DNA of 64,000 nucleotides, taken from Octopus vulgaris. Its lineage: Eukaryota. The stretch lies in assembly GCA_951406725.2 (NCBI GenBank), contig OX597840.1, positions 38,130,001-38,194,000 of the forward strand. The letters are read 5' to 3'. The position numbers were made by a program. Position 1 is the stretch's first letter. Each line of letters opens with the position of its first letter. Shown here piece after piece: positions 55,701 to 58,700 of the stretch.

Positions 55701-58700
55701 ATGAATATTGATTTCAAATTTCGGTACAAGGTCATAAATTTCAGCCAAGACAGTAAGTTAATTACGGTAAACCCAGTGCTTAACTGGTACTTTGTTTTAT
55801 CAACCCTGAAAGAGGAGACGAAATGGAAAGCCACCTCGGCGGAGTTTGATTTCACTGTAGACGAAATACCTATTACTTTACTACGCACAAGGGGACAAAC
55901 AAGGACAGACAAATGGATTAAGTCGATTATATCGATCCCAGTGCGTAATTGGTGCTTAATATATCGACCCCGAAAGGATGAAAGGCAAAGTCGACCTCGG
56001 CGGAATTTGAACTCAGACGTAACGGCAGACGAAATACCGGTTAGTATATTGTACGAAGTGCTCACGATCCTGTCAGCTCTTCGTCTAACTTTGACAAATG
56101 AATATTATTCATCCTTTGTTGTGTATGGGGGAAATCAGTGAAAAGAAACAAGATATCATCGGGTAAATGGTTACAACCCTTACGTTCTGAGTTCGACTCG
56201 TGCCAGGACAGGTTTTGAATTGGAGTGTGTGTGTTTGTCTGTTAACGCCGCTTGGTAACTGGTGTTGCTTTATTTACGTCCCCATAACTTAGTAGTTTAG
56301 CATAACAGTTCGTTGGAATAAGTACCCTGCTTTTAATATATAAGTATTGAGTGGAATACATTTGCCCGACTCAAACCCTTCGACGGCCGCAGTTCAATGA
56401 CTGACGCAAATAAAAGACGAGCACAAAATATCGATTTCGCTTAGAACACATTAGTTGCCGTAGTTATATAACAAGTAATTACAATTCATGTTTTTTTTGG
56501 TTAAAAATCTTGTCTTTCTTGTTCTGTTTAGACCAAAGACTCATTCGTAGCAGTCACTTCATATTTCATATTTATTTAAAGATTTCTTCGCCATATTTCA
56601 CAACGTTCGTAGAAAAATGACAAAAGCTCATTAATTATAATCGCTATTAAACTTTCTCTGGAAGAATCTCAGAGATTTTATTAATGTACACTATCATGAT
56701 AAATCATCGTTTAGAGAAGTGAAGAATATCCCAGAAAATGCCAACGGAAAATATCTGTCTAATCAATTATGTGTCGTTTACTGTGGTCATTAGTGTCTGA
56801 TTAGTTCAGAAAAGTAATTAGGAGGGGTCAAATCTCGATTATAATTTTCAAATGTTTAAGCCGCTCTTACCATCTGCTTCGTTACATTTCTATCTAACTT
56901 TTACAAATTGAACAGAAACCGTACACATCTCCAATACATTTTCCTGAAGGCGATTTTTACTATTTCCCATCTGTTCACTAATAAATGTCTTTATGATATG
57001 AATATAACTTTTAATCACCTATCTATTAGATATGTTCTTATTTATAAAACGCCTCTCGCCAACATTTTATTAAAGAGTCGCCGAGATATAAGTTTGAAAT
57101 ATAGATCAACGCCAACGTCCAGACTTCAGGTTAGACTTATATTTCCCTGATTTGTGAGACGTATCACGCATTTGCTATTTGCAACTAAACGGCTGACCAC
57201 GCTTTTCTGCATTTCTAAAATAGATTGCCCTCGTGGGCGACATTGTCCTTCCTTTCATATGCATTATCTCGCTTCGTAGGTATGTCTGTTCTCATTGATT
57301 TATAGGTCCAGCGATGGGTGAGTTGACAAATATTACTAGTCACGTATGGGTGTGAAGGTGCGTCGGGTAGCAGTCAGGGTGTTGCACCCGTGATCGTGAT
57401 ATCGTGATTTCGATTCCTGGACCGGTTTGTGGTTTATGCCCTTCATTTCACGCACTTCATTTTATGTTTTCTTGAGATTAATTTGGAATTTGACGCTTAG
57501 CACATCCACAGAGCACCTGTCCAGTTTATGTCAATTTTATGGGATGAGTGATCTAATGTACAGCATAAAATGTTGACCCCTATAAGAGAATCATCTCTAC
57601 GCATCGTACAACATGTTGTGGAACCCTGATCTGTCTTTTGCAACAGGACAGTCCGCAACATTTCACATACAAATATTAAGATCGGATTACTGAATCTCCC
57701 TTTCTTTGTGATACACCTCGCTGTCAAATATATATACTTCCTCCCTCGGGAGGCGCAATGGCCCAGTGGTTAGGGCAGCGGACTCGCGGTCATAGGGTCG
57801 TGGTTTCGATTCCCAGACCGGGCGTTGTGAGTGTTTATTGAGCAAAAACACCTAAAAGCTCCACGAGGCTCCGGCAGGGGATGGTGGTGATCCCTGCTGT
57901 ACTCTTTCACCACAACTTTCTCTCACTCTTACTTCCTGTTTCTGCTGTACCTGTATTTCAAAGAGGCGGCCTTGTCAGTCTCTGTGTCACGCTGAATATC
58001 CCCGAGAACTACGTTAAGGGTGCACGTGTCTGTGGAGTGCTCAGCCACTTACATGTTAATTTCACGAGCAGGCTGTTCCGTTGATTCGGATCAAGCGGAA
58101 CCCTCGTCCTCGTAACCGACGGAGTGCTTCCATCCACAGGTAATGCCAATTTTATGGTATGAGTGATCTAATGTATAGCATAAACGTTTGACCCCAAAAA
58201 GCAAATCATCTGTACGCCTCGTTTAACAAGATATTGTGGAACCCTGATCTGTCTTTTGCCACAGGACAGTCCACAACATTTCACATAGAAATATTAAGAT
58301 CGGATTACTGAATCACGCCTTCTTTCTGATACACCTCGCTGTCAAATATATATACTTCTTCACTAAATTTGAAATTTTAGTAACCATTAATTCATCTTCA
58401 CTGAAGGGAAGACGGCCAGAAGAAATGCATTTGAGTTCATCGAGTTTGTTAGTTACATCATAGCCATGCATTTGTAGGTTTCTTAACCTGTTCGCACATT
58501 TTGATTAGCAGTTTTAAAGCTGAACTCATATTAAAAGCTGTGTTTCCATATATATGGTTATAGTCGTATAGATAAACTTAAATGCCGAACCGTGTCTACG
58601 ATCACGTTTACATTACACTTGGTTACAAAAGCTACAATCAATTCTCGTAAACACTACCAATGTTTTGCTTGTGAGCCATAATATCGCTTCGATTTAAATG

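What the first reader, a model, noticed from the sequence alone, without database searches (positions are those of the whole stretch)
57522..58358. Second copy of the same SINE with a ~219-bp flanking duplication: a family that makes giant TSDs
Seen: a full-length SINE (57749-58136) lies between direct repeats 57522-57740 and 58137-58358 (roughly 88-90% identical by eye), unrelated to the repeats at 44 kb. Both family-C copies with this tail show duplications over 100 bp, so chance is unlikely. From recall, very long TSDs are known for a few autonomous non-LTR elements (C. elegans RTE-1, bdelloid R9), but I know of no such report for these SINEs. Inference: the partner LINE nicks the second strand 100-220 bp away, so each insertion duplicates host DNA. 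That could duplicate small exons or enhancers, and it gives each insertion an LTR-like molecular clock.
Basis: partly seen in the sequence, partly recalled or inferred. Interest (0 to 1): 0.82.

Follow-up and report, generated by a model that had tools for sequence, protein, structure and literature searches.

The report
Octopus SINE flanked by giant duplications
Two copies of one short retroposon family in an octopus-like genome are each bracketed by a 110-240 base duplication of the host DNA they landed in, about ten times the usual length, which points to an unusual way of cutting the target DNA but rests on only two copies.

Summary
A full-length SINE of about 390 bp (57747-58136, + strand) lies exactly between direct repeats 57522-57746 and 58137-58364. 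These match at 200 of 225 aligned bases with one 3-bp gap. A second, 5'-truncated copy of the same SINE (44147-44473) lies between unrelated repeats 44035-44146 and 44474-44587, which match at 107 of 112. These are the only two copies in the window with this 3' tail. They also carry the only 2 of 43 local direct-repeat pairs that are unique, non-simple sequence. Other SINEs in the window have TSDs of 12-16 bp or none detectable.

The best reading is that these are true target-site duplications. Target-primed reverse transcription would have made them, with the second-strand break 112-244 nt downstream of the first. A 9-mer shared between the SINE 3' end and the target fits microhomology priming.

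Three things stayed untested because no octopus genome could be searched: that this is a family-wide trait, that the partner LINE's nuclease sets the distance, and that the empty site holds one copy. TSDs over 100 bp are already known for R9, Dualen and L1. My searches found no such report for a SINE. I rate it a new variant of a known kind, with moderate to high interest.

The parts
57503..57521 (+). Probable upstream extension of the left duplication. It holds the 9-mer CATCCACAG, which recurs at the SINE 3' end / right repeat start (58131-58139), followed by about 13 bp that are missing from the right copy.
   Evidence: the 9-mer occurs 3 times in 64 kb (expected 0.27; 0 of 100 shuffles reach 3). 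Two of the three are at these homologous places. Sequence read.
57522..57746 (+). Left (5') copy of the long target-site duplication of the full-length SINE.
   Evidence: 200/225 identical to 58137-58364 with one 3-bp gap. Only two copies in the window.
57747..58136 (+). Box-A-like motif at 57759-57769, box-B-like motif at 57802-57813, tail hairpin at 58075-58101, 3' end ...GGAGTGCTTCCATCC(A).
   Evidence: Stops in all three frames. No tRNA call by ARAGORN or Rfam.
58137..58364 (+). Right (3') copy of the long target-site duplication.
44035..44146 (+). Left copy of the 112-bp duplication flanking the second SINE copy.
   Evidence: 107/112 identical to 44474-44587 with one 2-bp gap. Unique pair.
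44147..44473 (+). 5'-truncated copy of the same SINE. It starts at position 72 of the full-length copy and ends ...GGAGTGCTTCCATCCATCC. Tail hairpin at 44410-44435.
   Evidence: 95.1% over 325; alignment; hairpin, z = -2.55; 15 substitutions in 323 columns.
44474..44587 (+). Right copy of the duplication at the 44-kb insertion.
16768..17058 (+). Internal control: a SINE with the same head and 5' body (91.8% to positions 18-200) but a different 3' half. It sits in an (AT)n run, so any TSD is at most about 30 bp.

Best explanation
Both repeat pairs are target-site duplications made when a tRNA-type SINE was inserted by target-primed reverse transcription.

Proposed steps:
1. The bottom strand was nicked at the left edge of the duplicated segment. 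At the 58-kb site this lies inside a target CATCCA that matches the RNA's 3' end, so the RNA 3' end could anneal there.
2. The SINE RNA was copied from that nick.
3. The top strand was broken only 112 nt (44 kb) or 225-244 nt (58 kb) downstream.
4. Filling in the two long single-stranded stretches duplicated the host DNA on both sides.

Other SINE families in the same DNA have TSDs of 12-16 bp, and both copies with this tail have long ones. The distance of the second break is therefore most likely a property of the LINE machinery that recognises this tail, which contains a hairpin and ends in an ATCC-type repeat.

Shown: the anatomy, the exact junctions, the 5' truncation, the host origin of the repeats, and the microhomology.

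Inferred: the order of the nicks, the role of the partner LINE, and generality across the family.
For: 1. All four junctions coincide with the element's ends. At 44 kb the left repeat ends exactly where the truncated SINE begins, which is the hallmark of an abortive TPRT insertion.
2. The repeats at the two sites are unrelated and two-copy, so they are host DNA and not part of the element.
3. 2 of 2 tail-bearing copies in the window have repeats of at least 112 bp. These are the only 2 of 43 local repeat pairs that are unique, non-simple sequence.
4. Controls. Of 8 copies of the abundant SINE-X family, 2 have clean TSDs of 12 and 15 bp, 1 has a probable 16-bp TSD, 5 have none detectable and 0 have a long one. 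The head-sharing copy with another tail has at most about 30 bp.
5. The orientation fits. The SINE 3' end adjoins the right repeat, as expected if the first nick is at the left edge and the second lies downstream.
6. The 9-mer CATCCACAG is present both at the SINE end / right repeat start and 11 bp before the left repeat (expected 0.27 per window).
7. The repeats are diverged (4.5% and 11.1%) and carry small indels, so they are old insertions and not assembly duplicates.
8. [quoted passage not shown] Passages read: R9 at 126 bp, and Dualen-4b with duplications over 50 bp in more than half of de novo insertions, median 900 bp (PMC9977147). From a search listing only: L1 at 15 bp versus ZfL2-1 at 5 bp in the same cells (abstract of PMC4245944).
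Against: - There are only two copies, and no family-wide census was possible.
- No empty site was seen, so a duplication that pre-dates the insertion is not formally excluded.
- The 58-kb repeats are more diverged (11.1%; JC 12.0%) than the SINE bodies suggest. The expected SINE-to-SINE distance is 8.3%, against 4.8% observed. In the 125-bp region that can be polarised with the 16.8-kb copy, the 58-kb SINE has 1 private change against about 7 expected (P = 0.007 at the point estimate). The joint test is not significant (p = 0.10).
- Mismatches in the 58-kb repeats are uneven: 15 in the first 92 columns against 10 in the last 133 (Fisher p = 0.05).
- No target motif is shared between the two sites.
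- The partner LINE is unknown. RTE-clade TSDs in the papers read are 10-20 bp.
- The tRNA origin of the head is not confirmed by ARAGORN or Rfam.
Confidence: 0.65

Rival explanations
1. The repeats are true TSDs, but the long length is sporadic or set by the host and is not a trait of this family. The second-strand break would come from an unrelated distal nick, a repair intermediate or a replication-fork end. The two long ones in this window would then be luck, or would reflect the local chromatin or germline state.
For: L1 gives TSDs over 100 bp in up to 10% of HeLa events. In NER-deficient cells the figures are 4 of 7, 21 of 23 and 22 of 28 events, so host factors can set the second nick (passage of PMC5223499). 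The two lengths here differ about two-fold (112 against 225-244), so there is no fixed distance. No common motif is seen at the second-nick sites.
Against: 2 of 2 copies with this tail have long repeats, against 0 of 9 other SINE copies examined in the same 64 kb. If long TSDs had a frequency of 10% or less per insertion, two of two would have probability 1% or less.
Confidence: 0.15
2. The duplications are not products of the insertion. Either each site already held a tandem duplication and the SINE landed at the junction, or a later rearrangement duplicated the flank.
For: The 58-kb repeats look older than the SINE between them. No empty site could be examined.
Against: It needs two independent coincidences: an insertion exactly at the junction of a two-copy tandem duplication, in a window where no other unique tandem duplication exists. 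A later tandem duplication of flank plus SINE would also give a second SINE copy, which is absent. The common-rate test is not rejected (p = 0.10).
Confidence: 0.08
3. Assembly artefact. Two haplotypes, one with the SINE and one without, were joined so that the allelic flank appears twice.
For: Highly repetitive, heterozygous invertebrate genomes do produce such joins. This is general knowledge; no call bears on it.
Against: The repeat copies differ by 4.5% and 11.1% and carry 2-, 3- and about 13-bp indels. This is far above what I would expect between alleles (general expectation; no heterozygosity figure was looked up). The same structure occurs twice, with the same SINE family, and with exact junctions.
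Confidence: 0.03

Closest known systems
R9 rDNA-specific non-LTR elements of bdelloid rotifers (Gladyshev & Arkhipova 2009; known to me only through citing passages in PMC9977147, and reference lists)
   Same: A non-LTR retroelement whose insertion duplicates more than 100 bp of target (126 bp).
   Different: R9 is autonomous and site-specific, with one fixed TSD length. Here the element is a non-autonomous SINE at two unrelated sites with two different lengths (112 and 225-244 bp).
Dualen-4b_cRei LINE of Chlamydomonas (PMC9977147, passages read)
   Same: Variable, very long flanking duplications seen directly in de novo insertions. More than half exceed 50 bp.
   Different: It is an autonomous LINE with both RLE and APE nucleases, in a green alga, and the median duplication is 900 bp. 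No SINE is involved.
Human L1 insertions with TSDs over 100 bp in cultured cells (PMC5223499, passages; PMC2912911, passages)
   Same: The same anatomy, including 5'-truncated inserts with very long TSDs. It shows that the second nick can lie far from the first.
   Different: These are a minority of events (10% or less) unless nucleotide excision repair is defective. Genomic L1 and Alu copies have TSDs of about 5-30 bp.
RTE clade and RTE-derived SINEs (C. elegans RTE-1)
   Same: RTE elements end in short tri- to pentamer repeats and have spawned SINEs in molluscs (passage of PMC1291365). RTE is one of the LINE clades with recent insertions in Octopus vulgaris (PMC13282606, Table 1).
   Different: The long-TSD claim for RTE-1 was not verified in any text I could open. 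RTE TSDs in the papers read are 10-12 bp (most common), 10 and 12 bp, and 10 or 20 bp. No sequence link between this SINE tail and any RTE was tested.
Described octopus tRNA-derived SINEs (OR2 and relatives, Ohshima & Okada 1994; seen only as a citation in PMC4758252)
   Same: tRNA-type SINEs of octopus. The translated SINE body hits one Octopus bimaculoides protein entry.
   Different: I could not compare sequences. My searches found nothing in print on their TSD lengths.

Membership tests
tRNA-derived SINE mobilised by a LINE | Internal Pol III promoter (box A and box B) in a tRNA-like 5' head | tested here: inconclusive
   Box-A-like TGGCCCAGTGG lies at 57759-57769 and box-B-like GGTTTCGATTCC at 57802-57813, read by eye against consensus motifs recalled from memory. 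ARAGORN and Rfam report no tRNA.
tRNA-derived SINE mobilised by a LINE | Short, non-coding, dispersed copies with unrelated flanks, including 5'-truncated copies that keep the 3' end | tested here: met
   copies at 57.7 kb (full length), 44.1 kb (from position 72) and 16.8 kb (head and 5' body only). Stops in all frames. No longer protein relative found.
tRNA-derived SINE mobilised by a LINE | 3' tail shared with a partner LINE | not testable with these tools
   There is no LINE and no further tail match in the window. 14 of 142 stop-to-stop ORFs of at least 90 aa were scanned in Pfam and gave 0 families. No eukaryotic genome collection was available.
Non-LTR retroelements that make TSDs over 100 bp (R9, Dualen-4b, some L1 events) | Direct repeats of host sequence, not element sequence, abutting both ends of the insert | tested here: met
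   225-228 bp and 112-114 bp. The repeats are unrelated between sites and two-copy in the window. Junctions lie within 6 bp or less of the element ends.
Non-LTR retroelements that make TSDs over 100 bp (R9, Dualen-4b, some L1 events) | Long TSD recurs across the copies of the family | tested here: inconclusive
   2 of 2 copies with this tail in the window. A genome-wide census was not possible.
Non-LTR retroelements that make TSDs over 100 bp (R9, Dualen-4b, some L1 events) | The empty (pre-insertion) site carries one copy of the duplicated segment | not testable with these tools
   No second genome, haplotype or related species could be searched.
LTR-type non-autonomous elements (TRIM/LARD, retrozymes) | Terminal direct repeats are part of the element and homologous between copies; retrozyme repeats carry a hammerhead ribozyme | tested here: not met
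   The repeats at 44 kb and 58 kb share no similarity. No ribozyme or other Rfam family was found.
Ordinary tandem duplication unrelated to the SINE | Duplication boundaries independent of the transposon's ends | tested here: not met
   All four inner boundaries coincide with the SINE ends at both loci. No other unique tandem duplication exists in the window.

The most novel reading that the evidence does not exclude
The LINE that moves this SINE makes no nearby second-strand cut of its own. The top-strand break would be supplied by chromatin or replication structure, such as a nucleosome linker or an Okazaki-fragment end. TSD lengths would then be quantised in units of about 110-120 nt (112 here, and 225-244, roughly twice that). 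Every one of the possibly thousands of insertions would copy a nucleosome-sized piece of host DNA. That would make this SINE family a systematic generator of small local duplications in the octopus genome, each dated by its own repeat divergence.
Probability: 0.1. Interest if true: 0.85.

Novelty: new variant of a known kind. Interest (0 to 1): 0.6.

Why it matters
The least understood step of non-LTR retrotransposition is how the second DNA strand is broken and how far from the first nick. A SINE family that regularly leaves duplications of 100-240 bp would be a natural, high-copy read-out of that step. It would point to a LINE whose second-strand cleavage differs from L1, L2 and typical RTE elements.

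It would also mean that each insertion adds host DNA as well as SINE DNA. SINEs make up about 11.6% of the Octopus vulgaris assembly (PMC13282606), so this could affect small exons or regulatory elements.

There is a practical point. The TSD scanners in three papers read accept only 10-49 nt perfect repeats, 5-30 bp, or 50-bp flanks (PMC6007223 and PMC13295347; PMC2912911; PMC2996970). Such families would be scored as having no TSD and so overlooked.

Tried and rejected
1. LTR-like or composite element. Rejected: the repeats at the two loci are unrelated.
2. Retrozyme or known RNA family. Rfam gave nothing at gathering score over the whole window. At E up to 1 over 57300-58400 it gave only a chance Xist hit.
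3. tRNA origin by ARAGORN: 0 genes.
4. Partner LINE in the window: none.
   - The tail motif has no third match with up to 3 mismatches.
   - The SINE 3' half has no other BLAST hit except a 113-121-bp central-domain match at 9694-9814 on the minus strand.
   - 14 of the 142 stop-to-stop ORFs of at least 90 aa gave 0 Pfam families.
5. LINE origin of the SINE body, via protein search of an 80-aa open frame (P0001). There was one 51-aa Octopus bimaculoides 'uncharacterized protein' at 83% identity and nothing among longer proteins. No LINE ORF link was found.
6. Repeat divergence as a clock. Tested against SINE divergence and not rejected, but strained.
7. Substitution spectrum. The 58-kb repeats show 7 transitions and 18 transversions, against 8 and 7 between the SINE bodies. 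The difference is not significant (Fisher p = 0.18).
8. Tail hairpin. It is present in both copies but only weakly better than shuffles (z = -0.6 and -2.55).
9. Literature.
   - Eight searches were run. They found no report of TSDs over 100 bp for any SINE or for cephalopod retroposons. The library lacks most subscription-journal papers.
   - The R9 paper was not held.
   - PMC4245944 was seen only as the start of its abstract.
   - The supplement of PMC4758252, which holds the mollusc SINE TSD tables, could not be read.
The family census, the partner LINE and the empty sites therefore all stayed unchecked.
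Full report
**What is there**

Reading 57000-59000 shows a SINE of about 390 bp on the + strand at about 57747-58136. It has a tRNA-type head, with a box-A-like motif at 57759-57769 and a box-B-like motif at 57802-57813. I read these by eye against consensus motifs that I recall. ARAGORN and Rfam do not call a tRNA. The 3' end reads ...GGAGTGCTTCCATCC.

Direct repeats sit immediately to the left and right. 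The repeat finder reports a 92-nt block at 83% and a 139-nt block at 92%. Gapped alignment joins them into 57522-57746 against 58137-58364: 200 matches, 25 mismatches and one 3-bp gap. The window-wide BLAST E-value is 9.9e-77.

**The second copy**

BLAST of the SINE against the window finds a 5'-truncated copy at 44147-44470. It covers positions 72-396 at 95.1% over 325. It also finds a third element at 16768-16945 that shares only positions 18-200 (91.8%) and then continues with a different 3' half.

The 44-kb copy is bracketed by 44035-44146 and 44474-44587: 107 matches, 5 mismatches and one 2-bp gap (E 4.5e-43). The left repeat ends exactly where the truncated SINE starts. The right repeat starts exactly after ...CCATCCATCC.

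The tail motif occurs only at these two places, even with 3 mismatches allowed. The count is therefore 2 of 2.

**Is it more than chance?**

I scanned the whole window for direct repeats of at least 30 bp lying within 3 kb and found 43 pairs. For each pair I counted how many loci in the window match the left arm, and I measured its dinucleotide entropy. 41 pairs are multi-copy repeats (SINEs, tandem arrays) or simple sequence; I looked at three of these by eye. Only 2 are two-copy, complex sequence, and these are the pairs around the two tail-bearing SINE copies. The two pairs are unrelated to each other, so they are host DNA and not part of the element.

**Controls in the same DNA**

I examined eight copies of the abundant family I call SINE-X in the same way.
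- Two have clean TSDs: 12 bp (12075-12086 / 12315-12326) and 15 bp with one mismatch (9934-9948 / 10365-10379).
- One has a probable 16-bp TSD (59320-59335 / 59624-59639). Its left arm lies 48 bp before the BLAST-defined start.
- Five show nothing convincing.
- None has a long repeat.

The head-sharing element at 16.8 kb lies in an (AT)n run, which limits any TSD to about 30 bp. Long duplications therefore go with this tail and not with the region or with the SINE head.

**Junction detail**

The 9-mer CATCCACAG spans the SINE end and the start of the right repeat (58131-58139). It also occurs at 57503-57511, 11 bp before the left repeat. It occurs only 3 times in 64 kb, where 0.27 is expected, and 0 of 100 shuffles reach 3.

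The simplest reading is that the duplicated segment really starts at 57503. The right copy would then have lost about 13 bp between two CAG triplets. The target's CATCC(A) would be identical to the SINE RNA's 3' end, giving microhomology at the priming site. With this extension the duplication is up to 244 bp on the left and 234 bp on the right.

At 44 kb there is no such microhomology, and the tail carries one more ATCC unit. The last 100 nt or so fold into the same hairpin in both copies (58075-58101 and 44410-44435). The statistical support is weak (z = -0.6 and -2.55).

**Mechanism**

The SINE 3' end adjoins the right repeat. Under target-primed reverse transcription the first (bottom-strand) nick was therefore at the left edge of the duplicated segment. 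The top strand was broken at its right edge, 112 nt or 225-244 nt downstream. Fill-in of the two long overhangs gives the duplication. The 5'-truncated copy behaves the same way.

The anatomy is shown directly. The order of the nicks, and the idea that the partner LINE sets the distance, are inferences. Published work shows that TSD length can be specific to the element:
- R9 makes 126 bp, and more than half of de novo Dualen-4b insertions carry duplications over 50 bp, with a median of 900 bp (passages of PMC9977147).
- L1 makes 15 bp and ZfL2-1 makes 5 bp in the same cells (abstract listing of PMC4245944).

Host state can also move the second nick. L1 TSDs over 100 bp occur in 10% or less of HeLa events, but in 4 of 7, 21 of 23 and 22 of 28 events in NER-deficient lines (passage of PMC5223499).

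**Results that strain the simple reading**

- If both repeat pairs were identical at insertion and evolve like the SINE bodies, the two SINE copies should differ by about 8.3%. They differ by 15 of 323 sites (4.6%; JC 4.8%).
- I used the 16.8-kb element as outgroup over the 125 shared columns. The 58-kb SINE then has 1 private change, the 44-kb copy has 3, and 1 is unresolved. About 7 would be expected for the 58-kb copy (P = 0.007 at the point estimate).
- A joint Poisson likelihood-ratio test that lets all three counts vary gives p = 0.10. The clock is therefore not rejected, but the 58-kb repeats look older or faster-evolving than their SINE.
- Their mismatches are also uneven: 15 in the first 92 columns and 10 in the last 133 (p = 0.05).
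- Their mismatches are rich in transversions: 18 of 25, against 7 of 15 between the SINE bodies (p = 0.18).
- These points leave some room for a pre-existing duplication at 58 kb, or for error-prone fill-in. Neither could be tested.

**Context**

The window has no N and no recognisable coding sequence. 14 of the 142 stop-to-stop ORFs of at least 90 aa were scanned and gave 0 Pfam families.

An 80-aa open frame of the SINE body hits one 51-aa 'uncharacterized protein' of Octopus bimaculoides at 83% identity. It hits no longer protein. The window is therefore from an octopus or a close relative; this is an inference, consistent with my recall of the abundant SINE.

LINE clades with recent insertions in O. 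vulgaris are RTE, Dong-R4, CR1, L1-Tx1, Hero and R2 (Table 1 of PMC13282606). Which of them owns this tail is unknown.

**Literature**

Eight full-text searches, with passages from 15 papers, turned up no SINE and no cephalopod retroposon reported with TSDs over 100 bp.
- RTE-clade TSDs in the papers read are most often 10-12 bp (PMC6007223), 10 and 12 bp (PMC1291365), and 10 or 20 bp (PMC2887409).
- Entamoeba SINE1 TSDs are 6-29 bp (PMC2996970).
- The R9 paper itself is not held.
- The TSD scanners in three of the papers read accept only 10-49 nt perfect matches, 5-30 bp, or 50-bp flanks. They would miss a family like this one.
- The library lacks most subscription journals and Repbase Reports, so absence from print is not established.

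**Verdict**

The repeats are almost certainly target-site duplications of 112 and 225-244 bp. It is likely, but rests on two copies, that this is a property of the family and of its LINE. The census, the partner LINE and the empty sites therefore remain open. I rate it a new variant of a known kind, with interest 0.6.

Noticed in passing
window 16768-17058: A mosaic SINE. It has the same head and 5' body as the family studied (91.8% over positions 18-200) but a completely different 3' half, and it sits in an (AT)n run. This suggests tail swapping between octopus SINE families, and so possibly different LINE partners.
   Followed up: partly
window 9440-9938, minus strand: Another tRNA-type SINE whose central part (9694-9814) is 77-78% identical to positions 212-324 of the studied SINE, while head and tail differ. 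It looks like a central domain shared between families. It was not classified against known SINE superfamilies.
   Followed up: no
window 57340-57500: A degraded tRNA-type SINE head of a different family (weak match to 9081-9113) lies just upstream of the left duplication. The 58-kb insertion therefore landed next to an older SINE.
   Followed up: no
window 9949-10363, 12086-12319, 27649-27874, 29949-30184, 35779-35999, 59383-59622 and about 18 fragments: An abundant SINE of about 235 bp ('SINE-X') gives 24 BLAST segments in the window, including a head-to-tail dimer at 9949-10363. Where TSDs are visible they are 12-16 bp.
   Followed up: partly
window 57522-57746 vs 58137-58364: The 25 substitutions between the long repeats include 18 transversions and cluster in the first 92 bp (15, against 10 in the last 133). 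The pattern is odd for neutral decay but not significant (p = 0.18 and 0.05). It could hint at error-prone fill-in of the long gap.
   Followed up: partly
window 28340-28682 and 47577-47731: A tandem repeat with a period of about 156 bp (two units at 97%) has a third copy 19 kb away at 92-93% identity.
   Followed up: no
window 32220-33640, 22690-25690, 46800-47550: Very long (TA)n/(CA)n microsatellite tracts and a (GAT)n-rich low-complexity block of about 750 bp. Together with the SINEs they leave little unique sequence and no detectable coding sequence in the 64 kb.
   Followed up: no
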